Positions 13,273 through 33,145 of a DNA stretch of 64,000 bases are shown one piece after another. The position numbers and the translations under genes are program-made. The stretch lies in NCBI GenBank assembly GCA_041628225.1, contig JBFKPQ010000002.1:824-64823 (forward strand), read 5' to 3'. How positions within the stretch are numbered: the stretch's first letter is position 1; every line of letters begins with the position of its first letter. This DNA comes from Acidimicrobiia bacterium (GTDB lineage Bacteria > Actinomycetota > Acidimicrobiia > Spongiisociales > JAENVV01). The notes under the pieces are model-generated. The model was not told the origin of the DNA. It ran no database searches and saw only the letters and a list, made by a program, of their open reading frames with translations.

Positions 13273-16200
13273 GTGAAAGCTCTCGTCTCTCTGCTGTCGC
13301 GGTCCGTGCAACGGTTCCCGTGGGTGACGGTGGTCCTGGTACTGCTCGTCTCGTTCGGGATCATGTCGTTCAACCGCGAGATCGAACAGGCGGAAGCCAA
13401 CGAGGGGTTCGCTCCCGAGGCCGAGGCGCTGGCCGCCTCGGAGCGAATCCCGGATCTCTTCGGGGACGAGTCATCGGGTTCGGTGTTGCAGATCATCGTG
13501 TCGGCCGATGGCGGGGATGTCGTGACGGCTGACGGTGCAGCCGCGGTCCGGCAGATCACGGAGACACTGCTGGCCTCGGAACTGGCCGATGACTTGCAAG
13601 CCGGCAACGGCCAGCCGCCGATCGCCAGCTTCTTGGCGCCCCTCGAAGGAGCTCCCGGCCAAGGTCCCACGCTCCAACTGGTCGTGTCATCGGCCGACGG
13701 CGACGTCGTCACCCCCGATGGCCTTGCCGCGGTGCGGTCGATCCAGCAGGCCCTGTTCTCCTCGCCGGTCGCCGAAAAGCTCGACACGGCCTCGGGCCAA
13801 CCGCCTGTGTCGAGTTTCCTCGCTCCGCTCGAGTCGGCCCAAGGCCCGTCGCTGCAGCTCGTGGTGAAAGGCTCCGACGTGTTCACCGCCGAAGGGCTTC
13901 AGCTGACCGTTGCCGCGGAACAGGCGGTCTTCTCCACGCCGCTTGCCGCCAAGTTCGTCCAAGACGGCCCGCCGGTCACGTCGTACTTGCTGCCGGTCGA
14001 GAGCGCCATCGCCCAAGGCGCTCCGGCCGATCTCCCGACGCCGGGCGTCAAGCAGACGTACCTGGAGGTGGCTCCTGAACTCCCACCCGAAGTGGTTCCG
14101 GTTCTCGGGTTTCTCGCTTCGAACGATGCCGATCTCTCGGTGCCACAGGCGAGCGCCGGCCTCATCTCGTTCAGCTTGACCGAACCCGCTTCCGCCGAAG
14201 AGGTCGAAGCGGTCCGCGCCGCGCTGGCGGCCATCGAAGCACCGGAGGGCGTCTCCGTGTCGGTGCTGACGCCCGAGCCTGCCACCGCCGGGGAGCTGAA
14301 GGAGCTCTATCGCGAACGGCTGGCCTTCGTGCCGGCCGAGGTCGTGCCCTTTCTCGACTTCCTGCTCAGCAACGATCGCGACCCGGCCGGCCCCTCCGCA
14401 TCGAAGGGCCTCATCACGGCCACGCTCACCGAGCCGCTCACCGCCGCCGACGAGGCAGGGTTGCTGTCGGCACTGTCGTCGGCTCCGTTGCCGTCCGGAT
14501 ATGCCGTGAGCTTCCTTCCGTCGGATCCGACCGACACCGAGCTCAAGGCTGCCTATCTCGATCGTCTGGCGTTCGTGCCTGCCGAACAGGCGGGTCTCGT
14601 CGAGAATCTGCTGAGCGCCGACCGCGACCTCGCCGTGCCTTCGGCGACGCACGGTCTGATGATCGTCTTCCTGGAGTCGCCGGACTTCGAGGACACGGAC
14701 GCCCAGATCGACGCGGCCCTCCGCCAGCAGGCCGCCGTCGACGCCATCGCCGAACTCGACCTACCCGATGGCTACTCGGCTCAGGCGTTCAGCTTCGAAT
14801 TGATCTTCGCTTCCGCCGACGACAGCACGGCCGAGATCGGGCGCATGTTCGGCCTCGCGGCACTGATCATCGTCGTCGTCCTCCTCTTCAACTTCTGGCG
14901 CCGGCTCCCGGCGGCGGGGACGGTCCGGTCGGTGCGGCGCATGCTGGCTACGACCGTGGTCACGCTCGTCGTCATCCTCATGGCGATCGGGATCATGCAA
15001 GGCATCGGTGTCCTCTTGGGCCCGAAGTACCTGGGGATCATCGGCGACTTCAACCAGATCGTGCAGATTCTTCCGATCCTCCTCATCGGCCTCGGTGTCG
15101 ACTACGGCATTCACATGACGACGCGCTACCAGGAGGAACTCGGAGCGGGAGCCGACGTCGAGCGGGGGACCGGCATCGCCATTCGTACCGTCGGCGTCGC
15201 TCTGGTCTTGGCGACCGTCACGACGGTGGTGGGGTTCCTCACGAACCTCGTGTCGCCCGTGCCGGCGTTGAAGGACTTCGGCATCCTGGCGGCGGTCGGC
15301 ATCGTCGTGTCGTTCGTGCTCATGCTCACGCTCATGCCGGCAATTCGCCTCATCCTCGACAAGGTGGCGGAGCGCAATGGACATCTCGATGCCGCCGACT
15401 TCGCCTCCGAAGGTGCGCGGGGTGGTGCGATCGGCGCTTTGCTGGCCGGTTTCGTGGGAGGTGCTGCCGTCTACGCCGCCAGCGCGTCGATCGAAGCGGG
15501 TATCAAGTCGGTGGGTTACGGCGAGGTCTTCGAGGTCGCGCAACTGGGTCTGTTCGCCGTCATCGGTGCCGCGGTAGGCCTGGTCATCATCTTTCTGCCC
15601 CGCATCGTCGGGCCCACGGGAGCGCTGGCCGAGCGATTCCCGGTCTGGGTGGTGATCGCCGCCCTGGCCATCGGCGGGGTCGGCTACTACGGGTTCCAAC
15701 AGCTCGAGACGAGGTTCTCCTTCACGGACTTCGTGCCGTCGGACAACCCGTTGCTGGGCGCGATCGACCTGCTGACCGACGAGTTCGGTGGAGGGTTCGG
15801 TGAGACGACCTCGATACTCATCGAAGGGAACGTAGCCACCCCCGACGTGCACAACGCGCAAGTCGATGCGCTCGAGGCGCTGGGCGACACACCCGATGTC
15901 GTGCTGTTCGGCGACGCGGCCGCGCAAGATTCGGTGCTGTCGGTGCTCGGCTCGCTGATCGACCCATCCCTCCCGACGTTCTCGACCGACGTCGCCGGAG
16001 CTGCGCAGGCTGCGGGCGTCGGTTCCGATCTGCGGGTGGCGGCCGACGCCGATGTCGAAGCCCTCTACGGCGCCGTGCAGGCCGCCGCGCCGAACGAGTT
16101 CGCTTCGGTCGTGCATGGCGCCGGCGGCTCGTACACGGCCGGACTCTGGACGATCAACACGCAGGCCGGCGACCTGCGGGCCGGCGAGCTGAACGACAAC

Positions 16201-16845
16201 CTCGTGGAGGTGTTCGATCCTGTCGTCGGCGCCGGCGTGTCGGCGATACCGACCTCGCAGAACATCATCGGCGACGTCGTCGTCAAGTCGCTCCAGGCGT
16301 CGCAGGTCAGCTCGTTGTGGATCACCCTGATCGCCGCCACGTTGCTGCTGATCCTGAACTTCTGGATCGAATCGCGGCGCCCGCTGCTCGGCGTCATCAC
16401 CATGTTGCCGGTTGCGCTCGTCGTGCTCGCCACCTTCGGGACGATGGCGGTCACCGGCATCCCGTTCGGGCCGGTTACGGCCACGATCTCGGCGCTGGCG
16501 ATCGGCATCGGCGTGCCGTACACGATCCACATCACGCACCGCTTCCAGGAAGACCGGATCCGTCACGACTCGACGGAGGCGGCCATTCGGTCGACGACCC
16601 TGCACACCGGGGGTGCCCTGGCGGGTTCGGCCCTCACGACGATGGCCGGATTCGGCTCGCTGGTGACGTCGGCCCTGACGCCGTTCCAGCAGTTCGGCGC
16701 CGTGACCTTCTACGCCATCTTCTACGCCCTGGCGTTTTCGATCTTGCTGCTGCCGTCGATGCTCGTCCTGTGGGACCGCTGGCACCGGTCACGAGGCGAG
16801 GCGACGATCGACGAGAGCCGCCTGCACGAAGCGCTCGAGATCTGA
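13273..16845 (+). CDS. MMPL/RND superfamily membrane transporter with enlarged repeat-containing first periplasmic domain
   Basis: TM1, then a ~470-aa loop with tandem ~70-aa repeats, then two 6-TM RND bundles (GLGVDYGIHM..., AIGIGVPYTIHITHRFQE). GTG start with a GAAAGG RBS. Confidence 0.85.
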   Translation: MKALVSLLSRSVQRFPWVTVVLVLLVSFGIMSFNREIEQAEANEGFAPEAEALAASERIPDLFGDESSGSVLQIIVSADGGDVVTADGAAAVRQITETLLASELADDLQAGNGQPPIASFLAPLEGAPGQGPTLQLVVSSADGDVVTPDGLAAVRSIQQALFSSPVAEKLDTASGQPPVSSFLAPLESAQGPSLQLVVKGSDVFTAEGLQLTVAAEQAVFSTPLAAKFVQDGPPVTSYLLPVESAIAQGAPADLPTPGVKQTYLEVAPELPPEVVPVLGFLASNDADLSVPQASAGLISFSLTEPASAEEVEAVRAALAAIEAPEGVSVSVLTPEPATAGELKELYRERLAFVPAEVVPFLDFLLSNDRDPAGPSASKGLITATLTEPLTAADEAGLLSALSSAPLPSGYAVSFLPSDPTDTELKAAYLDRLAFVPAEQAGLVENLLSADRDLAVPSATHGLMIVFLESPDFEDTDAQIDAALRQQAAVDAIAELDLPDGYSAQAFSFELIFASADDSTAEIGRMFGLAALIIVVVLLFNFWRRLPAAGTVRSVRRMLATTVVTLVVILMAIGIMQGIGVLLGPKYLGIIGDFNQIVQILPILLIGLGVDYGIHMTTRYQEELGAGADVERGTGIAIRTVGVALVLATVTTVVGFLTNLVSPVPALKDFGILAAVGIVVSFVLMLTLMPAIRLILDKVAERNGHLDAADFASEGARGGAIGALLAGFVGGAAVYAASASIEAGIKSVGYGEVFEVAQLGLFAVIGAAVGLVIIFLPRIVGPTGALAERFPVWVVIAALAIGGVGYYGFQQLETRFSFTDFVPSDNPLLGAIDLLTDEFGGGFGETTSILIEGNVATPDVHNAQVDALEALGDTPDVVLFGDAAAQDSVLSVLGSLIDPSLPTFSTDVAGAAQAAGVGSDLRVAADADVEALYGAVQAAAPNEFASVVHGAGGSYTAGLWTINTQAGDLRAGELNDNLVEVFDPVVGAGVSAIPTSQNIIGDVVVKSLQASQVSSLWITLIAATLLLILNFWIESRRPLLGVITMLPVALVVLATFGTMAVTGIPFGPVTATISALAIGIGVPYTIHITHRFQEDRIRHDSTEAAIRSTTLHTGGALAGSALTTMAGFGSLVTSALTPFQQFGAVTFYAIFYALAFSILLLPSMLVLWDRWHRSRGEATIDESRLHEALEI

Positions 16846-17210: not shown

Positions 17211-17780
17211 TCAGCGGAGCCCGTCGAGGATGAACCGCTGGATCTGTTCGGCGAGCCCGGCCCGGTCGATCCGGCCGCCCGGGTCGTACCAGCGTTCGAC
17301 GGCGTTGAGGACCGAGAGAACGAAGATGGCAGCCATGTGCGGGTCGAGATCCGAGCGAAACGAGCCGTCGGCGACGCCGGCCCTCACGACCTTCCGGAAC
17401 TCCTGCTCGTAGCGGTCTCGCTGCTCGAGGACGTGCTGTCGCTGGGTGTCGGGAAGCGAGCGGGCTTCGTGGAGGAAGGTCCGTGCCTCGTCGCGGTGAT
17501 CGAGTACCACCCCGAGGTGTCCGACGACCAACAGCTCCAGGCGGTCGGCGGCGGAGGCGACGTCGGATACCTGCGCCCGTTCCGCGACCGCGCCGAACAG
17601 CTCGCCCCCTCGGCGGACCACCTCGACGAGGAGTTCCTCCTTGCTGCCGATGTGGGCGTAGAGCGAACCGCGCAACAGCCCCAACTCGTCTCCGAGGTCG
17701 CGCATGGAGGTTCCGTGGTAGCCGCGCTTGGCGAACAGTCGGCCGGCCGCGATGACGACGTCGTCGCGGGAGGTGGTCAT
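17211..17780 (-). CDS. TetR-family transcriptional regulator (PaaR-like, co-transcribed with paa operon)
   Basis: TetR HTH DVVIAAGRLFAKRGYHGTSMRDLGDELGLLRGSLYAHIGSKEELL. Its start overlaps the paaE stop (ATGA). Confidence 0.85.
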   Translation of the reverse strand: MTTSRDDVVIAAGRLFAKRGYHGTSMRDLGDELGLLRGSLYAHIGSKEELLVEVVRRGGELFGAVAERAQVSDVASAADRLELLVVGHLGVVLDHRDEARTFLHEARSLPDTQRQHVLEQRDRYEQEFRKVVRAGVADGSFRSDLDPHMAAIFVLSVLNAVERWYDPGGRIDRAGLAEQIQRFILDGLR

Positions 17781-18829
17781 ACGTCGAAGTCCAAGGTCAC
17801 GCGGTCCGACCGCGGGTGGGCCTGGCAGGTGAGGATGAGACCTGCGTCGACCTCCTCGGGAACCAGCGCCCAGTTCTTGTCCATCGTGACCTCACCGTCG
17901 ATGAGCTGTGCCTTGCAGGTTGCGCACGCGCCGCCCTTGCACGAGAACGGAAGCTCGCGCCGCACCTGCAAGGCGTGATCGAGGATGGACGGGCCGGCCG
18001 GATCGACCTGCACGACCGAGCCACGGCCTTCGAGAGTGAACGTCACGGTCGCCATGCCGGCGGTGTCGTCGTCCGCGGCGGGCAGACCAACGTCTGTGGG
18101 CGGGCCGGCAAAGAACAACTCGTCGTGGATGACTGCAGGGTCGATGCCGCGATCTTCGAGGGTGCTCCGGGCCGATGCGACGAGGCCGAACGGGCCGCAC
18201 AGGTACCAGTGGTCGACCGACTCCTGATCGACGAGGGTCTCGAAGAGCCGGTCGAGCTTGGCGCCGTCGATGCGACCGGAGAACAGGTCCACGGCGACGT
18301 GCTCGCCCGACAGCACATGCATGAGATGGAACCGATCGGTGTAGCGGTCCTTCAACGCCTCCAGCTCTTCGAGGAACATGATCGAAGCTGCGGTGCGGTT
18401 ACCCAGGATGAGCGTGGCTTTGCCGTGTTCGGTCGTCGAGAGGTGTGTCGAGACGAGCGACAGGATCGGTGTGATGCCCGAGCCCGCCGCGATCGCCGCG
18501 ATGTGGTGGCTGGCCTCCAGAGTGAACTCGCCGACCGGTTCCATCACGTCGAGGGCCATGCCGGCGCGCAGCTCCTTCGTCGCCCAGGTGGAGAAGATGC
18601 CACCATCCAGCCGCTTGATCCCGATACGCAGTTCGCCGGTGGTGGCGTTCGCGCAGATGGAGTAGGAGCGACGCACGTCCTGGCCGCCGATGTCGGCTCG
18701 GACGGTGACGTGCTGTCCGGCCTCGTAGGTGAAGGTGGTGCGCAGCTCGTCGGGAACGGCCAGCGTCACGGCCACGGCTTCGTCGGTCAGCGGTTCGACG
18801 GTCTCCACACCGAGTCGGTGGAACCGCAT
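17777..18829 (-). CDS. paaE: phenylacetyl-CoA 1,2-epoxidase reductase subunit PaaE (FNR-like with 2Fe-2S ferredoxin)
   Basis: FAD/NAD-binding RSYSIC...GSGITP, and a C-terminal CKGGACATCKA...LTCQA ferredoxin. Confidence 0.9.
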   Translation of the reverse strand: MRFHRLGVETVEPLTDEAVAVTLAVPDELRTTFTYEAGQHVTVRADIGGQDVRRSYSICANATTGELRIGIKRLDGGIFSTWATKELRAGMALDVMEPVGEFTLEASHHIAAIAAGSGITPILSLVSTHLSTTEHGKATLILGNRTAASIMFLEELEALKDRYTDRFHLMHVLSGEHVAVDLFSGRIDGAKLDRLFETLVDQESVDHWYLCGPFGLVASARSTLEDRGIDPAVIHDELFFAGPPTDVGLPAADDDTAGMATVTFTLEGRGSVVQVDPAGPSILDHALQVRRELPFSCKGGACATCKAQLIDGEVTMDKNWALVPEEVDAGLILTCQAHPRSDRVTLDFDV

Positions 18830-19275
18830 CAGATGTCCTTGAAGTGGTCGAAGGGTTCACCGCACGACGAGCACACATACAGCGCTTTGCAGGCCGTGGA
18901 TCCGAATTCGCTCACGAGGCGCGGTTCGGCGGTCCGACAGCGCGGGCACGTCACCTCGCCGCCCGGCGGAGCGATCCCGTACGCGTCGAGTTTGGCCCTG
19001 CCCTCGTCGGACATCCACGCGGTGGTCCAGGCGGGGGAGAGGACGGTGCGCACTTCATGTGGGCCGTCCCACAGACGGTCGACGACCGCCGACACGTCTG
19101 CCCGAATGACATCCATCGCCGGACAACCCGAGTAGGTCGGGGTGATCGTGACGATGAGCGTTTCGGAATCGACCGTCACGTCGCGCAGGATGCCGAGATC
19201 GGCGATCGTGAGCACCGGGATCTCCGGGTCGGTGACCGCGTCGAGTGCCGACCGAACGTCCTCGGCGGTCACCAT
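18829..19275 (-). CDS. paaD: phenylacetyl-CoA epoxidase subunit PaaD
   Basis: DVRSALDAVTDPEIPVLTIADLGILRD...TPTYSGCPA...CPRC...CSSCGEPF. Start at Met54 of ORF 18829..19434. Confidence 0.8.
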   Translation of the reverse strand: MVTAEDVRSALDAVTDPEIPVLTIADLGILRDVTVDSETLIVTITPTYSGCPAMDVIRADVSAVVDRLWDGPHEVRTVLSPAWTTAWMSDEGRAKLDAYGIAPPGGEVTCPRCRTAEPRLVSEFGSTACKALYVCSSCGEPFDHFKDI

Positions 19276-20030
19276 GTCAGGCCCGGGTGAGAGCGCGGCA
19301 CGATCTGGAGTTCGGCGAGGAGGAAGCCGAGATGCTCGCTGTGGCGGCCCGCCCGACCGCCCGTCCGCTGGAACGGGTCGTCCGGAACCGTGAGCGTCGC
19401 CTCGTGCAGCACGTTGTGCACCGTGCTCGTCCACCGTGGCGCGAGTGCGCCAGGGTCGATGCCGATGCCATCGGCCGCCAACCGTCGGTCGAGGTCGTCA
19501 CCCGTCGTCAGCTCTGCGGTGAAGCGCCACAGGGAGTCGACGGCGAACTGCATGCGGGTGTGAGATTCCTGCGTACCATCGCCGAGACGCCGGACCCACG
19601 TCGAGGAATGCCGGAGATGGTAGGCGGTCTCCTTGGCGGCCTTGGCGGCGATCCCGGCGAGATCCGGGTCGGACGACGACGCCAGGTCCTGCCAGAACGG
19701 GAGTTGGTAGGCGTCGAAGAACAACTGGCGGGCCATCGTGAAGGCGAAGTCGCCATTGGGCTGTTCCACGAGCAAGACGTTCGAGAACTCGCGCTCTGAC
19801 CGGAAGAAGGCGAAGTCGTCCTCGACCCTGCCCATCCCCTCGCGAACGCCCGCCAGCGAGTAGAGGTGGCGAGCCTGACCCAGGAGGTCGAGGGCGATGT
19901 TGGTGAGCGCGATGTCCTCCTCGAGTTCATGCGCGCGCGACGACCACTCGCCGAGGCGTTGGGCGAGGACCAGGCAATCGTCGGCGTGGCGCAAGACATA
20001 GGCCGTGACATCGGTGGTGTTCGTCGTCAC
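19269..20030 (-). CDS. paaC: phenylacetyl-CoA epoxidase subunit PaaC
   Basis: Ferritin-like PaaC pattern (AQRLGEW...LDLLGQARHLY...DDFAFFRSEREFSN). Confidence 0.85.
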   Translation of the reverse strand: MTTNTTDVTAYVLRHADDCLVLAQRLGEWSSRAHELEEDIALTNIALDLLGQARHLYSLAGVREGMGRVEDDFAFFRSEREFSNVLLVEQPNGDFAFTMARQLFFDAYQLPFWQDLASSSDPDLAGIAAKAAKETAYHLRHSSTWVRRLGDGTQESHTRMQFAVDSLWRFTAELTTGDDLDRRLAADGIGIDPGALAPRWTSTVHNVLHEATLTVPDDPFQRTGGRAGRHSEHLGFLLAELQIVPRSHPGLTW

Positions 20031-20365
20031 ATGTGCCCTACGTCATCGGGGATCTCGTAGAAGGTGGGATGGCGGTACGGCTTGTCGGCGAACGGTTCGA
20101 ACAGCTCGCCGGCCGCGTCGGGGTCAGAAGCCGTGATGGCGGTGCTCGGGACCACCCACAGCGAAACGCCTTCCACGCGCCGGGTGTATACGTCTCGGGC
20201 GGCCTGCAGGGCCGTCTCGGCGTCTGAGGCGTGGAGGCTGCCCGCGTGGACGTGCGAGAGGCCGCGGCGCCGACGAACGAATACCTCCCACAGCGGTGGA
20301 CCCGCTCGTCGATCGCCGATCGAGGGCGGCTGGTCGTCCGGCTGGGAAGGTACTTCGTATGGCAT
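20027..20365 (-). CDS. paaB: phenylacetyl-CoA epoxidase subunit PaaB
   Basis: PLWEVFVRRRRGLSHVHAGSLHA...LWVVPS. RBS GAGGAG. Start at Met29 of the listed ORF. Confidence 0.85.
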   Translation of the reverse strand: MPYEVPSQPDDQPPSIGDRRAGPPLWEVFVRRRRGLSHVHAGSLHASDAETALQAARDVYTRRVEGVSLWVVPSTAITASDPDAAGELFEPFADKPYRHPTFYEIPDDVGHM

Positions 20366-20373
20366 GGCGCTCC

Positions 20374-21291
20374 TCAGGCCGTCCGGCGGTTGGCGTGCTT
20401 GGCGGCGTACGAGGCGGCTGCCTCGCGCACCCACGCGCCCTCGTTCCACGCGTCGACCTTTTGCGCAAGCCGCTCGCGGTTCATGGGGCCGTCACCTGAA
20501 ACAACCCGCCAGAATTCGTCCCAGTCGATGGCACCGAAGTCGTATCGGCCCGCGCGTTCATTCCAGACGAGGTCCGGGTCGGGGATGGTGAGGCCGAGGT
20601 ATTCGGCTTGCGGCACGGTGGTGTCGACGAATTGCTGGCGCAGGTCGTCGTTCGAGACCCGCTTGATCTTCCACGCCATCGACTGGAGCGAGTGCGTCGA
20701 GTCGGCGTCGTGTGGACCGAACATCATGAGTGACGGCCACCACCACCGGTCGAGTGCATCCTGGGCCATCGCCTTCTGATCGTCGGAGCCGCGGCAGAGG
20801 GTGAGCATGATCTCGTAGCCCTGACGCTGATGGAACGATTCCTCCTTGCAGATCCGCACCATCGCACGTGCGTAGGGCCCGTAGCTGCACCGTGCGAGCA
20901 TCAGCTGGTTGGTGATGGCGGCTCCGTCGACCAGCCAGCCGATGGCGCCGATGTCGGCCCAGGTCAGCGTCGGGTAGTTGAAGATCGACGAGTACTTGTG
21001 GCGGCCCACGTGCAGGAGGTGCAGCAACTCGTCGCGGGAGACACCGAGCGTTTCGGCCGCCGAGTAGAGGTAGAGGCCGTGGCCGGCCTCGTCCTGGACC
21101 TTGGCCATGAGGATGGCTTTTCGCTTGAGGCTGGGGGCGCGGGTGATCCAGTTGCCCTCCGGTTGCATGCCGATGATCTCCGAGTGGGCGTGTTGGGCGA
21201 TCTGTCGGATGAGCGTTTGCCGGTAGCCGTCGGGCATGTCGTCTTTCGGCTCGATCTTCTCGTCGGCGTCGATGAGGGCCTGGAAGTCCAT
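20374..21291 (-). CDS. paaA: phenylacetyl-CoA epoxidase catalytic subunit PaaA
   Basis: Diiron ligand motifs ([15 protein letters not shown]...[10 protein letters not shown]...[11 protein letters not shown]). Confidence 0.9.
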
Positions 21292-23545: not shown

Positions 23546-26500
23546 TCAGCGCGGCGCAATGGCGAAGACCTGGCCCGTCTCGCTCGTGACGAAGAGGACG
23601 TCGGTTCCCACCGCGGGCGACGTGACGATCCGTCCTCCGGCGTCGAATCGCCACACTTCCTCGCCATCGAGGGTGGCTGCCAGGACGAACCCGCTGACGG
23701 AGCCGGCATAGATCATGTCTCCGGCGATCACGGGAGGCCCGGTGTCGGTGAGGTCGGGGATCACCCAGAGAATGGTCCCGTCCGGCACGCTCATCGCCGT
23801 CAGCCGCGGCCCGTCGGCGTAGTAGACGACGCCGTCTGCAACCGCGACTTCGTCATTGAGGTCCACGCCCAACAACAGGGGCTGGGCTTCCACCAGTGAT
23901 GGGCACCGACCCTCGGCGAACTGGAAGAGATTGCCCCCTTGGGTGCCGACGTACACGATGCCATCCGAGATGGCCGGCGCGGTTCGGATGGCGGCGCCGG
24001 TCTCCAGCGTGCAGATGCCTTCGCCGGTGGTTGCGTCGACGAGGTGGAGGGTGCCGGCTTCGTCGCCGACGTAGATGATGCCATCGCTGGCCGTGGGGCT
24101 CCCGGTCATGGGCGGCCCTGGGTCGCCGGACGGGTATTGCCAGAGAACCGTGCCTTCTCCGGCCGCCAGGCCGTGGAGCCGGCCATCCCCGCCGCTCACG
24201 GCGACCATGTCGTATCGCTCACCGGACGGTGGGAAGATCCGAAAAACGATCGGCGTCGTGAGGACGGGCTCGCCGATCTCGTATTGCCAGAGGGGCCTTT
24301 GGTTCGAGTTGATCGCATCGCGGGCGTACACGCGACCGTCGTTGCTGCCGGCCACCAACATGCTGAGCGTCGACTCCCCGATGTCGACGGATCCGACCGT
24401 CGGTGTCGAGAGGACGGGCCCTCCTGTCTCCATTCGCCACAGCTGCGCCCCGGTCGTCTGGTCGACGGCGTAGATGAAGTGATCCGAGCTGCCGAAGTAC
24501 ACCCATTTCCCGAAGGCAACCGGCGACGTCCGGATGACGTCCCCTGCGGCGAATGTCCAGTAGATCCCGCCGACGTCGGGAACTCCTGCGGCGTCGAACA
24601 CGCCATCGTGCAGTGGTGACCCTCGCCATTCGGCCGAGCCCGACAAGCCGTCTTCGGGGACCGGAACGATGTTTCGCTCCAGAACGAACTGTGTCGTGGT
24701 GGTGCGGTCGACCGTGCGTTCAATGACGACCGTTCCTCCGGGAGAGAGGTCGAAGCCCCCGAGAGCGAACGTGGCACCGACCGAGAGCGCGACGACGGCG
24801 GCAGCGCCGACCAGGATGGCGACCGCACGACTCGCCGTGCGGACTGGTCGGCGGCGGACGACACCGGCGGCGCGGCGCTGCGACGGCGACAGCGGCGCAC
24901 CTCCTTCGTCCAACCCGAGACCTGCCCAGGCCTCCGCCAGTGCTTCGCGGAACTCGGGGGTCTCTTCGTCGACCGCTCCGGTGTGCTCGAGCGCGGCCGA
25001 TACGTGCGGCAGCTCTCGCCACGCCGGTTGCCATCCGGGTGGTAGCCGGTCGGCGAGTCCTCGCACCCTGTCGGCGACGCGGGCCGACGGGCCTTCTTCC
25101 CAGGCGTCGGCCGCATGCACGGCTCGGACGGTTGCCGGGAGGTTGCCGAGCTCGTCGGCGAGCGTGGCGGCGTGGCGTGCCAGTTCCGGGTCGGACTCGA
25201 TCGTGGCCCGATCCGTCATGAAGTCCACCGCCGCGCCGAACCACCTGGCCACGAGCAGTTCGTCGGTCAGGTTCTCGGCGTGCTCCTGGTCGTAGTCGCC
25301 GGTGGAGGCCTGATCGATGACGAGGCGCGCCGCCTCGCAGCGGCGCCTCCACCGCCATCCGTCGGCGCCTGGCGGGCAGGCTTCGATCGCCAGCCGGATC
25401 TCCGACTGCGCCGTGCCGGCATCGTCCGTGTGGAGGAATCCCTGAGCGCGATGGAACCGCGCCACGTTCTCCCATTGGGGAAGATGCGCCATCGTCAGGT
25501 CGAACAGCCCTTCGGCTTGTTCGGCGTAATCGGCCCAGCGCTCGAAGGTCGCGAGTCCTTCCGCCCGAGCCAACGCCGCCAGGAACAGCACGGAGGTGGC
25601 CCCGTTGGCGCGTGCCAGGTCCTCGGCGCGCCGGATGGCTTCCAGAGCGCCGGTCGCGTCGCCGGTGGAAAAAAGGGCCCGGCCCCAGTAGGCGAGCTGC
25701 GCGGCGAGCGCCCCCGGTCCAAGGTGCTCGGCCCGGTCGACGAGCGATGCAAACGACGCCTCGGCGTCGCGCGCCTGTCCGCGGTCCAACTCGATCCAGG
25801 CTCGGTGCGTGTCGACCGAATAGCGATGGTCCGCAACCTCCCCTTCTGCCGACGACTTGCGGAGGGCAGCGTCGGCTTCCTCGGGGAACCCCAGGCGAGA
25901 CAACGTCCGAGCGTGGAGAGCAAGGAGCGGCGGAAGCTGGTCTCGGGTGTCCGCGAGGTGCGCATCGAGTTCGGCCATGGCGAGATGGCGCTCCGCCTGC
26001 TGCGGTCGCTGCAGATCGTCGGCCAAGGTTGCGGCAAAGCCGCGCGCCGCCACCTTCGGAGCGCCTTCCAGCAGATCGACGGCCAGTTGGTTTTCTCGCG
26101 CGGCTCCGTCCGACCAGCCGGCCGAGCGCAGGAAGCGTGCTCGCATGTCGTGCAGCATCCCCGTCGTCTCGTCCCTGGCCTCAGGGTCGGCGTCGAGAGC
26201 CCGGCCGGCCAGCCAATACGCCTCGGCCGCCTGGCCGGTGTCGTGGCGCGCCTTGGCCAGGCGCGTGAACATGTCCCTGGCGCCCTCCGTATCGCCCGCT
26301 TGGGCCATCAATTCCGCCCGGGTGAGTTCGTCACTCTCGGGGACGGCTGCCAGCAGGCGCTGGGCGAGATGGGCTCTCCGCGCCGCCGTCAGCTCGATGG
26401 TATCGGACAGCGCCTCACCAGCTCCGTAGCCTTGGGGAGTGTCGATGGCGAGACCGGAACGAATGAGCCGGTCGCCCGCAGTGAGCACCGCGTTCTCTTC

Positions 26501-27223
26501 GAGGCCGGTGACCGTCGCGAGCGCATCGACTCGCACGGGATTCCCGGCGGTGACGAGGGCTTGGGCGACGGCTACCTGGGTCTCGTCGAGTGCATCCTGC
26601 GCCACCTGCGCGCCCGGTTCGATCGTCCACTGGTCTTCCGTGTGATCGAGCGAACCTGTGGCCGCCGATGCCCGGAGGCGGGCGAGAATCCGCCGGTCGT
26701 TGGCGCCACCGGCGAGAATGGCGTCGGCGAACGCTTCGACGCCGGGGCCCGTCAGCGCACCGGCCAGGTCCACTGAGTCGATGGGAATCAGGTCGAGTTC
26801 GTGAGTCGTCGCACCGGTCGTGGCTCGCATCTTGTTGATCGTGATGGCGACGAGGTCGTCAGAACGATCGGCGACCAACACCAGCGTCACCGGCCGATCG
26901 CCGGACGCCAACAGACGGTGGAGGTGTGCCAGTGAGCTGGCATCGGCCTTGCCGAGATCTTCGATCGCAATGAGGAGTGGACCGTCTTCCGGCAGGTCGA
27001 GCTGGTCGAGAACGTCGCCCGCCCGGGAAGGGTCGGTGCCGTGAGCGATGTGGGCTCCCAGGTCGTCGCGCAGCGCCTCCAGGAGGGGCCCCGCATCAGC
27101 CGGGGGAACCCGGTCGACGACGACGAGCTGGCTCGAGCCCTCCGCCTTCGACGCGATGTGCGCGGCCGAGATGCGCTCCCAGATGTCTCGGCGCAAGGTA
27201 CGGACGAATTCGATGGTTTCCAC
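23546..27223 (-). CDS. large multidomain membrane protein: degenerate STAND/AAA-like NTPase N-terminus, TPR-like helical middle, single TM, C-terminal extracytoplasmic PQQ-repeat beta-propeller
   Basis: 1225 aa with a strong SD (GAGGGAGG). Walker-B-like LLIAIEDLGKADASSLAHLHRLLA but no P-loop. TM helix AVAILVGAAAVVALSVGATFAL around residue 830. Repeated G.VY.G..DG.L.A.D..TG..LW propeller blades follow. Confidence 0.75.
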   Translation of the reverse strand: METIEFVRTLRRDIWERISAAHIASKAEGSSQLVVVDRVPPADAGPLLEALRDDLGAHIAHGTDPSRAGDVLDQLDLPEDGPLLIAIEDLGKADASSLAHLHRLLASGDRPVTLVLVADRSDDLVAITINKMRATTGATTHELDLIPIDSVDLAGALTGPGVEAFADAILAGGANDRRILARLRASAATGSLDHTEDQWTIEPGAQVAQDALDETQVAVAQALVTAGNPVRVDALATVTGLEENAVLTAGDRLIRSGLAIDTPQGYGAGEALSDTIELTAARRAHLAQRLLAAVPESDELTRAELMAQAGDTEGARDMFTRLAKARHDTGQAAEAYWLAGRALDADPEARDETTGMLHDMRARFLRSAGWSDGAARENQLAVDLLEGAPKVAARGFAATLADDLQRPQQAERHLAMAELDAHLADTRDQLPPLLALHARTLSRLGFPEEADAALRKSSAEGEVADHRYSVDTHRAWIELDRGQARDAEASFASLVDRAEHLGPGALAAQLAYWGRALFSTGDATGALEAIRRAEDLARANGATSVLFLAALARAEGLATFERWADYAEQAEGLFDLTMAHLPQWENVARFHRAQGFLHTDDAGTAQSEIRLAIEACPPGADGWRWRRRCEAARLVIDQASTGDYDQEHAENLTDELLVARWFGAAVDFMTDRATIESDPELARHAATLADELGNLPATVRAVHAADAWEEGPSARVADRVRGLADRLPPGWQPAWRELPHVSAALEHTGAVDEETPEFREALAEAWAGLGLDEGGAPLSPSQRRAAGVVRRRPVRTASRAVAILVGAAAVVALSVGATFALGGFDLSPGGTVVIERTVDRTTTTQFVLERNIVPVPEDGLSGSAEWRGSPLHDGVFDAAGVPDVGGIYWTFAAGDVIRTSPVAFGKWVYFGSSDHFIYAVDQTTGAQLWRMETGGPVLSTPTVGSVDIGESTLSMLVAGSNDGRVYARDAINSNQRPLWQYEIGEPVLTTPIVFRIFPPSGERYDMVAVSGGDGRLHGLAAGEGTVLWQYPSGDPGPPMTGSPTASDGIIYVGDEAGTLHLVDATTGEGICTLETGAAIRTAPAISDGIVYVGTQGGNLFQFAEGRCPSLVEAQPLLLGVDLNDEVAVADGVVYYADGPRLTAMSVPDGTILWVIPDLTDTGPPVIAGDMIYAGSVSGFVLAATLDGEEVWRFDAGGRIVTSPAVGTDVLFVTSETGQVFAIAPR

Positions 27224-27285
27224 GCGGCCTCCCTCGTTGGCAAACTACCGCACCGGCCACCGTCGCGGTGGGGGAACCTGGAATA

Positions 27286-27884
27286 TCAGAAGGATGGCAG
27301 GAACTCGGCGCGGCCTGCCTCGAAGTCTGCGATGGCCGATGCGTGTCCGAGGGTGATGCCGATGTCGTCCAAGCCGTTCAGCAATCGGTGTCTCGTGAAC
27401 GGGTCGATTTCGAAGGTCGCTTCGAATGCGTCGGCGGTCACCGTTTGTGCCTCGAGATCGATCACGATGGATGCAGCAGGATCGTTTTCCGCCAGTTCGA
27501 GGAGGTAGTCGACTTCCTTGTCGGACAGCTCGATGGGGAGCAGTCCGATCTTGGTGCAGTTGGTCTTGAAGATGTCGGCGAACGACGGCGCGATGACGGC
27601 TTCGAATCCCCAATCCTGGATGCCCCACGGCGCATGTTCCCGTGACGACCCCGATCCGAAGTTCGGTCCGGTGACGAGCACCTTGGCATCTTGGTACTCG
27701 GGCCGGTTGAGCGGGAAGTCCGGGTCGAGTTCACCGTCAGGGCCGTGCCGCCAGTCCGCGAACACGAACTCGCCGTAGCCGGTGCGCTCGACCCGCTTGA
27801 GGTGCTGTTTCGGCATGATCTGGTCGGTGTCGACGTTGGCTCGTCGGAGCGGGAGCATCGTTCCACGGATGACGGTCACGACTT

Positions 27885-27888
<4 letters not shown>
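27286..27888 (-). CDS. leuD: 3-isopropylmalate dehydratase small subunit
   Basis: [28 protein letters not shown]... (200 aa). Start overlaps the leuC stop (ATGA). Confidence 0.9.
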
Positions 27889-29291
<1,403 letters not shown>

Positions 29292-31708: not shown

Positions 31709-31813
31709 AACCAGTCTCGCAGTGTGCCTCTGTTGTACGGCGTGAACTGGTCGCCCGGATCATCGACACGCGCAGTGGTTGCGTGGGTACTGTGGGGGGC
31801 AGGAGGAGGACCT

Positions 31814-33145
31814 ATGAAGAGATGGATGACGGTGCTCGTCGCCTCGCTGACCGTGTTCGCGTTGACACCGGGGGCGCTGGCCGAGCCCAAACCGAAGTAT
31901 TACGTGAACGAAGCGGCGCTCGAGGCGTTCGAGCCCCTGCCGGGAGCGACGGGCATGACCGGCATCCTGAACGGGGCCGGCTACTTGGTCGAAGTGCCGG
32001 ACGACTGGAACGGCGACCTCGTCATGTGGGCCCACGGCTATGCCGGAGAAGGTCTCGAGCTGAACGTCTCGCCACCGCCTGCCGGACTGCGCCAGTACCT
32101 CGTCGACCAGGGCTTCGCGTGGGCCGCGTCGTCCTATTCGAAGAACAGCTACAACGTGTCGCAAGGCGTGAAAGACACCCACAGCCTGGCCACGTGGTTC
32201 CGGGGTCACGTCGACAAGCCCGACCGCACCTACATCGCCGGGGTCTCGATGGGCGGCCACATCACCGCCGTGTCGATCGAGCAGTATCCGATGTACAACG
32301 CGGCCATGCCGGTCTGCGGTGTGCTCGGCGACTTCGAACTGTTCGACTACTTCCTCGACTTCAACCTCGCTGCCCAGGCGTTGGGCGGCGTCGACTCCGA
32401 GTACCCGATCTTCACCGTCGAGCCGTACCTGACGGAGACCGTTCCCCAGATCCAAGCCAACCTCGAAGCCTTCCCCGGCGGCTGGCCGATCTTCTTGAAC
32501 GCCGACGGAACCAACCTCAAGAACCTGACGGAGCTGCGGTCCGGCGGTGACCGTCCGAACTTCGATGAGGCGTGGTTCTTCTGGAACGAGTTCGCGTCAT
32601 TCGCAGGACCACCCGGCGACTTCTTGTTCGATCTCGGCCTGGGCGATGGAACGCTGGCCGGACGTCCTGGCCAGGTGCCCGACAACCACGACACCGTGTA
32701 CCAGTTCGACGGCGATTCGGCGCTGTCGGCCGACGAGCAGGCGCTCAACGACTCGATCCTGCGTGTCTCCGCTGATCGACAGTCCCGCCACTCCAACGGT
32801 CTGGCGAACGTCCCGGTCGTTTCGGGCGACATCGACATTCCGGTGCTGACGATGCACAACCTCGGCGATCTCTTCGTGCCGTTCGGCATGGAGACGATCT
32901 ACGGCCAACGCGTCGCCGACCATGGCAAGAGCGACCTGCTCGTGCAACGCGCCATCCGCGGGGTGTTGCACTGCGACTTCACGGATGCGGAATACACCAC
33001 GGCGTTCGCTGACCTCGTCGCCTGGGTGGAGATGGGAACCAAGCCCGACGGTGACGACGTCCTGGATCCGGCCGCGGTCGCGCACCCCGAGTTCGGTTGC
33101 GCGTTCACCGACGGCGCACACCTGCTCGGCACTCCCTGTCCGTAG
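31814..33145 (+). CDS. secreted alpha/beta hydrolase (GxSxG esterase/lipase-like)
   Basis: Perfect RBS AGGAGGAGGA. Signal peptide MKRWMTVLVASLTVFALTPGALA. GVSMGGHIT nucleophile elbow. Confidence 0.7.
   Translation: MKRWMTVLVASLTVFALTPGALAEPKPKYYVNEAALEAFEPLPGATGMTGILNGAGYLVEVPDDWNGDLVMWAHGYAGEGLELNVSPPPAGLRQYLVDQGFAWAASSYSKNSYNVSQGVKDTHSLATWFRGHVDKPDRTYIAGVSMGGHITAVSIEQYPMYNAAMPVCGVLGDFELFDYFLDFNLAAQALGGVDSEYPIFTVEPYLTETVPQIQANLEAFPGGWPIFLNADGTNLKNLTELRSGGDRPNFDEAWFFWNEFASFAGPPGDFLFDLGLGDGTLAGRPGQVPDNHDTVYQFDGDSALSADEQALNDSILRVSADRQSRHSNGLANVPVVSGDIDIPVLTMHNLGDLFVPFGMETIYGQRVADHGKSDLLVQRAIRGVLHCDFTDAEYTTAFADLVAWVEMGTKPDGDDVLDPAAVAHPEFGCAFTDGAHLLGTPCP

What the first reader, a model, noticed from the sequence alone, without database searches (positions are those of the whole stretch)
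23546..27223. 1225-aa single-pass membrane protein combining degenerate STAND-like NTPase, TPR-like region and extracytoplasmic PQQ beta-propeller
The N-terminus resembles LuxR/LAL-type AAA (STAND) regulators around the Walker B region (LLIAIEDLGKADASSLAHLHRLLA), but no P-loop is present and the ORF start is fixed by the upstream leuD. The middle ~500 aa is helical repeat-rich, followed by one TM helix and ~380 aa of PQQ/BamB-like propeller repeats predicted outside the cell. No HTH or kinase output domain is visible. This looks like a transmembrane scaffold or signalling protein of unknown function, placed directly downstream of leuCD on the same strand.
Basis: partly seen in the sequence, partly recalled or inferred. 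Interest (0 to 1): 0.7.

Follow-up and report, generated by a model that had tools for sequence, protein, structure and literature searches.

The report
Membrane-anchored STAND relic with outside propeller
This gene encodes a real, conserved 1225-residue membrane protein of Acidimicrobiia in which the switch-and-sensor module of AfsR/MalT-type regulators has lost its nucleotide-binding loop and its output domain. Instead it is tied through one membrane helix to an eight-bladed propeller outside the cell, an arrangement I found described nowhere and whose function is unknown.

Summary

**Gene.** ORF 23546-27223 (-) has a fixed GTG start, 62 nt after leuD.

**Cytoplasmic part (aa 1-798).** AlphaFold gives pLDDT 93. 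It forms an NBD-helical-winged-helix NOD followed by a roughly 470-residue TPR superhelix. The best PDB match is the MalT-like STAND protein PH0952.

**Nucleotide motifs.** The P-loop is replaced by DRVPPADAG. Walker B (LLIAIED) survives.

**Membrane and outside parts.** One Nin-Cout helix (aa 799-824) leads to an eight-bladed BamB/YxaL-like propeller (pLDDT 95) with a conserved Cys pair.

**Family.** About 100 clusters at 50% identity, all located loci in Acidimicrobiia MAGs. The family shows a gradient:
- intact GK[ST] P-loop
- Lys to Arg
- decayed loop (this gene)
- shortened loop
- whole NBD deleted, including orthologues in the same leuCD synteny

The nearest relatives outside the family are soluble SARP-NOD-TPR (AfsR-like) regulators.

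**What is missing.** There is no effector domain, no conserved partner gene and no defence signature.

**Best reading.** A nucleotide-independent transmembrane receptor or scaffold. The conserved core is winged helix, TPR, membrane helix and propeller. Ligand, partner and direction of signalling are unknown.

**Verdict.** New variant of a known kind, of moderate interest.

The parts
23546..27223 (-). Whole ORF, 1225 aa, GTG start, TGA stop
   Evidence: Homologues.
27228..27235 (-). Shine-Dalgarno GAGGGAGG, 4 nt upstream of the GTG
   Evidence: Read directly.
26780..27223 (-). NBD-like alpha/beta domain, aa 1-148. Parallel strands at 32-38, 58-61, 83-88, 112-118 and 139-145.
   Evidence: AlphaFold. 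AAA_16 sub-threshold. RuvB matches.
27089..27115 (-). Degenerate P-loop position, aa 37-45 DRVPPADAG. It aligns with GPPGSGKS of relatives. No Gly-rich loop and no Lys.
   Evidence: Alignments. No P-loop pattern.
26957..26977 (-). Walker-B-like strand LLIAIED, aa 83-89, followed by GKADASS (family consensus QWADPTS)
26654..26779 (-). Helical (lid) domain of the NOD, aa 149-190
26387..26653 (-). Winged-helix domain of the NOD, aa 191-279. The NBD-less family members begin here, at about aa 212-225.
24974..26386 (-). TPR-like superhelix, aa 280-750, the best-conserved part. Motifs: VDALGFAA.VADD.Q.PQ.AE, RLGF..EAD, FDRG, LP.WEN, P.G.DGWRWR, AEDLTDELL.
24830..24973 (-). Cytoplasmic juxtamembrane segment, aa 751-798, with the near-invariant LSP.QRR..G.VRRR motif (7 Arg)
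24752..24829 (-). Single transmembrane helix, aa 799-824, Nin-Cout by the positive-inside rule
   Evidence: Hydropathy peak 2.34. The same position in homologues.
24575..24751 (-). Extracytoplasmic Thr-rich linker, aa 825-883
   Evidence: lower pLDDT, no regular blades
23549..24574 (-). Eight-bladed PQQ_2/BamB/YxaL-like beta-propeller, aa 884-1225
   Evidence: Pfam PQQ_2 1.8e-26. AlphaFold pLDDT 95.4. Foldseek Cake8 TM 0.88, BamB and YxaL.
23903..24013 (-). Span that runs from Cys1071 (24011-24013) to Cys1107 (23903-23905). These are the only two Cys in the propeller and are at least 90% conserved in the family. Probable disulfide.
27286..29291 (-). leuC-leuD directly upstream on the same strand (context, not part of the protein)
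   Evidence: Pfam. Conserved synteny.

Best explanation
The gene encodes a single-pass (Nin-Cout) membrane protein.

**Cytoplasmic part.** About 800 residues form the NOD-TPR module of an AfsR/MalT-type (AAA_16) STAND regulator. It has no N- or C-terminal effector domain and a destroyed P-loop.

**Outside part.** An eight-bladed BamB/YxaL-like propeller, probably stabilised by a disulfide.

**How I think it works (inferred).** It no longer acts as a nucleotide-driven switch. It acts as a nucleotide-independent transmembrane receptor or scaffold.
- The propeller binds an envelope or extracellular ligand.
- The strongly conserved TPR superhelix, with the winged helix and the Arg-rich juxtamembrane motif, binds a cytoplasmic partner.
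- Information passes by ligand-dependent clustering or re-orientation of the single-helix protein.
- The relic NBD survives only as a structural or oligomerisation surface.

**Shown:** architecture, topology signals, ancestry, P-loop loss, the dispensability of the NBD in orthologues, and the lineage restriction.

**Inferred:** that it signals or scaffolds, the outside-in direction, and the existence of a cytoplasmic partner.
For: **Fold**
- AlphaFold of aa 1-800 gives pLDDT 93 and pTM 0.88, with NBD, helical domain, winged helix and TPR.
- Top Foldseek PDB hit is the STAND-TPR protein 6MFV, E=2.5e-9 over 704 columns. MalT domain III and RuvB also match.
- A family profile hits consensus TPR at 1e-11 and RuvB at 1e-5.

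**Ancestry**
- Exhaustive HMMER found soluble Trans_reg_C + BTAD + AAA_16 + TPR (SARP) proteins matching aa 58-748 at about 30% identity.
- The wider profile neighbours are AAA_16-TPR proteins with SARP, LuxR, cyclase or kinase effectors.

**NTPase loss**
- The loop reads DRVPPADAG.
- Among 28 family members that keep a NOD: 6 canonical, 7 Lys to Arg, 8 decayed, 7 with a shortened loop.
- About 30 clusters lack the NBD altogether.
- These include orthologues in the same leuCD-X-MOSC-GDPD synteny, with only 58-142 nt between leuD and X.
- The NBD is the least conserved region: 22% identity between the window and other NOD-bearing members, against 35-37% for the TPR.

**Topology**
- One hydrophobic helix, with RRAAGVVRRRPVRTASR on the N-side.
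- The only two propeller Cys are at least 90% conserved.
- A Thr-rich linker follows the helix.

**Propeller**
- PQQ_2 at 1.8e-26. Eight blades, TM 0.88 to Cake8, with BamB and YxaL close behind.

**Housekeeping-like behaviour**
- All 22 genome loci are from Acidimicrobiia-type MAGs.
- Synteny is conserved with biosynthetic genes.
- No PADLOC hit.
Against: - No ligand, partner or phenotype is known, and nothing here tests binding or signalling.
- No partner gene is conserved next to it across the family. Neighbours are leuCD, a menC-like gene, mfd or an ADH, depending on lineage.
- The direction of information flow is a guess. An inside-out or purely structural role fits equally well.
- The NBD is still 81% identical between the window and its 82% relative, and it folds confidently. 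It is therefore not simply decaying, and it might bind a nucleotide or another ligand non-canonically.
- The propeller has only generic relatives, at most 33% identical, so it gives no clue to specificity.
- The tree behind the 'gradient' is a quick neighbour-joining tree without support values.
Confidence: 0.5

Rival explanations
1. Inside-out or purely extracytoplasmic role. The propeller is the working part: a BamB/YxaL-like scaffold or chaperone for secreted or cell-wall proteins. The cytoplasmic TPR-NOD merely anchors, positions or regulates it, for example by clustering it at growth zones.
For: - Closest solved folds are BamB, a scaffold of an assembly machine, and secreted YxaL.
- The propeller is 97% identical between the window and its nearest relative, against 82% for the cytoplasmic part.
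- The NBD is dispensable.
Against: - The cytoplasmic TPR carries the densest set of near-invariant residues in the family. That is hard to explain for a mere anchor of about 800 residues.
- Acidimicrobiia are Actinomycetota, which by general knowledge lack the Gram-negative type of outer membrane. No Bam-type machine is therefore expected for BamB to serve. I did not test this.
- TIGR03300 scores 107 bits against a cut-off of 285.
Confidence: 0.2
2. It is still a nucleotide-dependent STAND switch. The NBD binds ATP/ADP through a non-canonical pocket and drives oligomerisation as in MalT or AfsR.
For: - Walker B acidic pair (E88 D89) is retained, and the Arg after strand 4 (VADR) is retained.
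- The NBD fold is predicted with high confidence.
- Basal family members keep GK[ST].
Against: - No glycine-rich loop and no Lys or Arg at the P-loop position. Two prolines and an Asp occupy it.
- Sister lineages shorten the loop or delete the whole NBD in the same genomic position.
Confidence: 0.12
3. Membrane-tethered partner or decoy of the paralogous soluble SARP-NOD-TPR regulators. By homotypic NOD/TPR contacts it would sequester or release an AfsR-like transcription factor in response to an envelope signal.
For: - The closest relatives of the cytoplasmic module are SARP-NOD-TPR proteins, collinear over aa 58-748.
- Many of them also have decayed P-loops.
- STAND NODs oligomerise homotypically (established knowledge of the family).
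Against: - The one SARP paralogue examined is not linked to X. It lies by glnA genes.
- NBD-less family members could not use NOD-NOD contacts.
- Co-occurrence in the same genomes was not tested.
Confidence: 0.1
4. An anti-phage or conflict STAND (Avs/bNACHT-like), or a PQQ-dependent dehydrogenase.
For: STAND-TPR proteins are frequent phage sensors (PMC13581612). Pfam and NCBIfam PQQ models give weak hits.
Against: - No effector domain and no PADLOC match.
- Stable synteny with housekeeping genes, and apparently vertical inheritance within one class.
- The sensor-like propeller is outside the cell.
- PQQ dehydrogenase models score 35 bits against cut-offs of 480 or more. The propeller has 340 residues rather than about 600.
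Confidence: 0.04

Closest known systems
AfsR-type 'large SARP' regulators (SARP - NOD - arm/TPR; Streptomyces coelicolor AfsR, PMC10936776)
   Same: - The nearest relatives found by sequence are SARP-NOD-TPR proteins, collinear with aa 58-748 at about 30% identity.
- Same AAA_16-type NOD followed by a TPR sensor arm.
- In AfsR the NOD and TPR inhibit the effector until ATP binds.
   Different: - No OmpR-type DNA-binding or BTAD domain.
- P-loop destroyed.
- C-terminal membrane helix and extracytoplasmic propeller added.
- Membrane-bound rather than soluble.
MalT / PH0952 (MalT-like STAND with TPR or SUPR sensor; PDB 6MFV, 1HZ4)
   Same: - Same domain order: NBD, helical domain, winged helix, TPR.
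   Different: - No LuxR-type HTH.
- No Walker A.
- 12-15% identity only.
- Membrane anchored.
Receptor proteins with an extracytoplasmic or sensory beta-propeller (AfsK-type kinases with PQQ repeats; BamB; Bacillus YxaL)
   Same: - Eight-bladed PQQ_2-type propeller.
- The NCBIfam AfsK model matches the propeller part at 4.8e-19.
- BamB and YxaL are the closest natural folds.
- The logic 'cytoplasmic signalling module - propeller sensor' resembles AfsK.
   Different: - No kinase domain.
- AfsK is reported as cytoplasmic and loosely membrane-associated, whereas here a membrane helix precedes the propeller.
- No lipoprotein signal as in BamB.
- Scores lie far below every family cut-off.
RRNPP-type TPR receptors (Rap, NprR, PlcR, AimR)
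   Different: - Similarity of fold only, 5-10% identity.
- Those proteins are soluble, with HTH or phosphatase outputs.
- No evidence of peptide signalling here.

Membership tests
STAND NTPases, AAA_16 (MalT/AfsR) type | Walker A P-loop GxxxxGK[ST] after strand 1 | tested here: not met
   No pattern match. The aligned position reads DRVPPADAG, against GPPGSGKS in relatives. AAA_16 matches only profile positions 71-166.
STAND NTPases, AAA_16 (MalT/AfsR) type | Walker B hhhhD[DE] strand | tested here: met
   LLIAIED at aa 83-89, on predicted strand 83-88. It aligns with the family's LLVDDAQWAD.
STAND NTPases, AAA_16 (MalT/AfsR) type | Tripartite NOD fold (NBD, helical domain, winged helix) followed by a repeat sensor arm | tested here: met
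   AlphaFold pLDDT 93. Foldseek 6MFV 2.5e-9, RuvB and 1HZ4. Profile against RuvB 1e-5 and against TPR 1e-11.
STAND NTPases, AAA_16 (MalT/AfsR) type | Sequence homology to family members with an intact NTPase | tested here: met
   Collinear homologues with AAA_16 hits up to 5e-10 and GK[ST] loops.
STAND NTPases, AAA_16 (MalT/AfsR) type | An effector domain (HTH, kinase, cyclase, protease and so on) fused to the NOD | tested here: not met
   Pfam, NCBIfam and PADLOC find nothing beyond the propeller. The NBD starts at residue 1.
STAND NTPases, AAA_16 (MalT/AfsR) type | Nucleotide-dependent oligomerisation | not testable with these tools
   Needs biochemistry.
Large SARP (AfsR) regulators | N-terminal OmpR-type DNA-binding domain plus BTAD | tested here: not met
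   Absent from the window protein. Present in the paralogues P0064 and P0075.
LAL / MalT regulators | C-terminal LuxR-type (GerE) HTH | tested here: not met
   No PF00196 hit. The C-terminus is a membrane helix plus propeller.
BamB (outer membrane assembly lipoprotein) | Equivalog-level score, lipoprotein signal peptide, partner BamA in a diderm | tested here: not met
   TIGR03300 scores 106.6 bits against a cut-off of 285.2, and NF008351 scores 76 against 423. The propeller follows an internal membrane helix at aa 799-824, not a lipobox. The eight-bladed fold itself is shared.
PQQ-dependent dehydrogenases | Full-length quinoprotein propeller reaching the family cut-off | tested here: not met
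   TIGR03075 scores 35.4 bits against 480. PF01011 scores 19.5 against 26.7.
Propeller-bearing Ser/Thr kinases (AfsK-like) | Hanks-type kinase domain | tested here: not met
   No Pkinase hit. NF053615 matches the propeller only, 68.5 bits against a cut-off of 1300.
Anti-phage STAND systems (Avs, bNACHT) | Match to defence models, an effector domain, defence-island context | tested here: not met
   PADLOC gives 0 families. Neighbours are leuCD, MOSC, GDPD and paa genes.

The most novel reading that the evidence does not exclude
This family is a previously unrecognised class of bacterial transmembrane receptor. It is built from a STAND (NOD-TPR) module joined by a single helix to an extracytoplasmic propeller, in effect a 'membrane-spanning NLR-like receptor'.

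- Basal members with GK[ST] would couple an extracellular signal to ATP-dependent oligomerisation inside the cell.
- Derived members such as this one would have become nucleotide-independent, having lost the P-loop or the whole NBD.
- They might control the paralogous AfsR-like transcription factors.
Probability: 0.25. Interest if true: 0.75.

Novelty: new variant of a known kind. Interest (0 to 1): 0.55.

Why it matters
STAND proteins (MalT, AfsR, Apaf-1, NLRs, Avs) are, as far as I know, treated as cytosolic switches that need a nucleotide and carry an effector domain.

This family breaks three of those rules at once. It is membrane-spanning with a large extracytoplasmic domain, it has no effector, and it shows step by step how the NTPase can be lost while the winged-helix-TPR core stays under strong constraint.

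It gives a natural series for asking what a NOD does once it no longer binds nucleotide: intact P-loop, Lys to Arg, decayed loop, shortened loop, then no NBD at all.

It also flags a conserved, apparently housekeeping envelope-to-cytoplasm link in Acidimicrobiia, a widespread but poorly studied class. The practical impact is limited until a ligand or partner is found.

Tried and rejected
1. **Sequence search of the cytoplasmic part against PDB.** As a single sequence it found nothing meaningful: allophycocyanin at E=0.19.
2. **Profile search with the full-length alignment A1.** It was swamped by propeller hits. It had to be repeated with a cytoplasm-only alignment, A3.
3. **Word-indexed homologue search.** It found only 3 family members. 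With profile A3 it returned generic AAA_16-TPR proteins rather than the family. The exhaustive HMMER search was what revealed the family.
4. **Genome scan with the 66-sequence alignment.** A 13-sequence alignment worked, but it used a single peptide pattern, so the 22 loci are a sample and not a census.
5. **Search for a conserved partner gene.** Clustering neighbours across 24 loci found only lineage-specific synteny:
   - leuCD / MOSC / GDPD / MDMPI_N / DUF3237 / MMPL
   - DUF7144 / menC-like / acyl-CoA dehydrogenase
   - mfd
   - ADH
6. **Promoter and terminator scan.** Nothing between leuD and the gene, so co-transcription can be neither shown nor excluded.
7. **Propeller-only homologue search.** It gave only generic stand-alone propellers of about 430 residues at 33% identity or less. 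No specific link to kinases.
8. **Population variants.** The same protein on other contigs differs by 2 synonymous substitutions only, too few to measure selection on the NBD.
9. **Paralogues.** None in the window.
10. **Literature.** Three searches found nothing on this architecture.


Full report
**The gene**

- The start is fixed. A strong GAGGGAGG ribosome-binding site lies 4 nt upstream, an in-frame TAG lies 8 codons upstream, and leuD ends 62 nt upstream.
- leuC (Aconitase, 2e-179) and leuD (Aconitase_C, 2e-32) are confirmed, and their stop and start overlap.
- Downstream, convergent on the plus strand, are a MOSC-domain gene, a GDPD phosphodiesterase and a DUF3237 gene.
- The window has 65-70% G+C throughout, with no compositional break at the gene.

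**Domain searches**

- Only the C-terminal third reaches significance in Pfam and NCBIfam: PQQ_2 at 1.8e-26, Beta-prop_ACSF4 at 4e-34, and BamB and AfsK models far below their cut-offs.
- The first 300 residues scanned alone give a sub-threshold AAA_16 match (E=0.013). It covers only profile positions 71-166 of 167, the half that follows the P-loop.
- No P-loop pattern is present. LLIAIED (aa 83-89) is the only Walker-B-like string.
- A single hydrophobic helix lies at aa 799-824. It is preceded by RRAAGVVRRRPVRTASR and followed by an acidic, Thr-rich stretch. This gives an Nin-Cout topology by the positive-inside rule.
- PADLOC finds nothing. A plain sequence search of PDB finds nothing for the cytoplasmic part.

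**The family**

The word-indexed search found only the protein itself, an 82%-identical full-length relative with the same N-terminus, and a 65%-identical fragment from an Acidimicrobiia MAG. NCBI names the fragment 'PQQ-binding-like beta-propeller repeat protein'.

The exhaustive HMMER search of 1.84 billion representatives with aa 1-830 found 105 clusters, 76 of them below 1e-30. They fall into four architectures:

| Type | Length | Make-up |
|---|---|---|
| A | about 1200-1350 aa | Collinear from residue 1: AAA_16 (profile positions 1-62, up to 5e-10), TPR, a membrane helix near aa 830 and the propeller |
| B' | about 1150-1200 aa | As A, but with a shortened P-loop |
| B | about 1005-1060 aa | Begins at query aa 212-225, the start of the winged helix. 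No NBD at all |
| C | about 1000-1050 aa | Soluble: Trans_reg_C + BTAD + AAA_16 + TPR. These AfsR-like large SARPs match query aa 58-748 at about 30% identity |

With a cytoplasm-only profile, the more distant neighbours are the whole AAA_16-TPR world, carrying SARP, LuxR, adenylate cyclase or kinase effectors.

**State of the NTPase**

| P-loop state | Family members that keep a NOD (28) | SARP paralogues (8) |
|---|---|---|
| Canonical G..G.GK[ST] | 6 | 2 |
| Lys to Arg | 7 | 1 |
| Decayed | 8 (includes the window and its 82% relative) | 5 |
| Loop shortened by a deletion | 7 | none seen |

- In the window, DRVPPADAG stands where relatives have GPPGSGKS.
- The Walker B block is much better kept. 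The family consensus is LLVDDAQWADPTS and the window has LLIAIEDLGKADASS.
- The NBD, helical and winged-helix regions are the least conserved parts. The window shares 21-22% identity with other type-A members there, against 35-37% in the TPR.
- A rough neighbour-joining tree on the TPR region puts the SARP forms at the base, then a clade with GK[ST] or GR[ST] loops. A derived clade holds the window together with the loop-shortened and NBD-less forms. The tree has no support values, so this is indicative only.

**Structure**

*Cytoplasmic part.* AlphaFold2 with the 66-sequence family alignment models aa 1-800 at mean pLDDT 93.0 and pTM 0.88.

| Element | Residues |
|---|---|
| Five-stranded alpha/beta domain (strands 32-38, 58-61, 83-88, 112-118, 139-145) | up to about 148 |
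| Small helical domain | 150-188 |
| Winged helix | 192-279 |
| About 25 helices in a TPR-like superhelix | 280-750 |

- The best Foldseek match in PDB is 6MFV, the STAND protein PH0952 with a TPR sensor (E=2.5e-9, 704 aligned columns). RuvB AAA+ motors match the N-terminal part, and MalT domain III matches the TPR.
- A cytoplasm-only profile hits consensus TPR proteins (1.6e-11) and RuvB over positions 8-281 (1e-5) in PDB sequences.

*Extracytoplasmic part.* Residues 826-1225 are modelled at pLDDT 95.4. About 58 less regular residues are followed by an eight-bladed propeller.
- The closest folds are the designed eight-bladed Cake8 (TM 0.88), BamB and Bacillus YxaL.
- Its only two cysteines, C1071 and C1107, are at least 90% conserved across the family. 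That fits a disulfide in an extracytoplasmic domain.

**Distribution and context**

A pattern-based scan of one genome per species returned 22 loci. Nearly all are labelled Acidimicrobiia or Actinomycetota MAGs, and two carry labels that look like binning errors. It used a single peptide pattern, so it is a sample and not a census.

Clustering neighbours across 24 loci gives lineage-specific synteny only:
- **Group 1** (window, L001-L007, L009): MpaB-like, leuC, leuD, X, MOSC, GDPD, MDMPI_N, DUF3237, MMPL.
- **Group 2** (L012, L016, L017, L020; 1300-residue forms that keep a NOD): DUF7144 membrane protein, X, menC-like enolase-superfamily gene, acyl-CoA dehydrogenase.
- **Elsewhere:** mfd or an alcohol dehydrogenase.

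In L009 and L002, X lies in the same leuCD synteny as in the window but is only 1019-1021 residues long. Only 58-142 nt separate it from leuD. The NBD has therefore really been deleted in orthologues; it has not just been missed by gene calling.

No gene accompanies X across the family. No promoter or terminator consensus separates leuD from X, so co-transcription is possible but unproven. The one SARP paralogue examined lies next to two glutamine synthetase genes and an OmpR-type regulator, not next to X.

**How it most likely works**

*Shown:*
- The cytoplasmic part descends from an AfsR/MalT-type NOD-TPR module.
- The P-loop is gone here, and the NBD is dispensable in orthologues.
- The conserved core is winged helix, TPR, Arg-rich juxtamembrane motif (LSP.QRR..G.VRRR), membrane helix and propeller.
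- The sequence signals place the propeller outside the cell: one Nin-Cout helix by the positive-inside rule, and a conserved Cys pair. The topology was not tested experimentally.
- There is no effector domain.

*Inferred:*
- The protein no longer uses nucleotide exchange. It works as a transmembrane receptor or scaffold.
- The propeller binds something in the envelope or outside.
- The TPR groove binds a cytoplasmic protein or ligand. Its nearest structural analogues bind peptides (the RRNPP receptors) or a sugar inducer: maltotriose activates MalT according to the AfsR paper, and that it binds in domain III is from my own knowledge.
- Coupling occurs by clustering or re-orientation of a single-helix protein, as in other single-pass receptors.

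I give this about 0.5.

*Rivals:*

| Reading | Weight |
|---|---|
| Propeller-centred, BamB/YxaL-like extracytoplasmic scaffold with the cytoplasmic part as anchor or regulator | 0.2 |
| Non-canonical nucleotide switch | 0.12 |
| Membrane tether or decoy for the SARP paralogues | 0.1 |
| Defence system or quinoprotein enzyme | 0.04 |

**Comparison with the known, and novelty**

- It works most like, and descends from, AfsR/MalT-type STAND regulators. It fails two of their defining features, Walker A and an effector domain, and it adds a topology I did not find described.
- It is not a SARP, LAL, BamB, quinoprotein dehydrogenase, AfsK-type kinase or Avs protein. Each was tested and not met (see the membership table).
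- Three full-text searches found no paper on a NOD-TPR-membrane helix-propeller protein. The only database name is the generic 'PQQ-binding-like beta-propeller repeat protein'.
- I rate it a new variant of a known kind, with interest 0.55. It is an unusual and well-supported architecture with an instructive evolutionary series, but it has no functional handle yet.

Noticed in passing
window 17211-21291 (-): A phenylacetate-CoA oxygenase cluster. PaaA (20374-21291), PaaC (19269-20030), PaaD (about 18829-19305) and the PaaE reductase (17777-18829) are followed by a TetR-family regulator (17211-17780). All have strong Pfam hits.
   Followed up: partly
window 13273-16845 (+): A 1190-residue MMPL/RND-type transporter. 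By eye, its large N-terminal extracytoplasmic region contains three tandem copies of a unit of about 75 residues (...L.FVPAE......L.S.DRD...P.A..GL....L.EP...). A homologous MMPL gene is part of the conserved group-1 synteny.
   Followed up: no
window 27257-27271 (leuD-X intergenic region): A perfect 6-bp inverted repeat, CCACCG-cga-CGGTGG, in the 62-nt spacer between leuD and the gene. It is not followed by a T-run and the terminator scan did not call it. Significance unknown.
   Followed up: no
L024 8001-11099 and neighbours: The SARP-NOD-TPR paralogue P0064 has a decayed P-loop (GDAEAGIE). It sits beside a second OmpR-type regulator and two glutamine synthetase genes, which recalls the AfsR/GlnR/PhoP cross-talk described for Streptomyces.
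   Followed up: no
L004 1140-4916 and L007 3367-5645: In two Microflora-Danica MAG contigs, about 2.3-3.8 kb is inserted between leuD and the homologue of X, and X is split into two ORFs. This is either a frameshift or a long-read assembly error. One MAG (MFD03551.bin.2.103) carries two leuCD-X loci, L004 and L005, which suggests mixed strains in the bin.
   Followed up: no
window 31781-33145 (+): A 454-residue protein with an N-terminal signal-like hydrophobic segment (MKRWMTVLVASLTVFALTPGALA) and no Pfam match at E<=1e-4.
   Followed up: no
L017 3-434, L020 5690-6193 and 6327-6758: A small membrane protein of about 143 residues lies directly upstream of the NOD-bearing homologues in two loci and is duplicated in one of them. 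By eye it has about four hydrophobic segments. Pfam gives DUF7144 at 23.6 bits, below the gathering cut-off of 27.
   Followed up: partly
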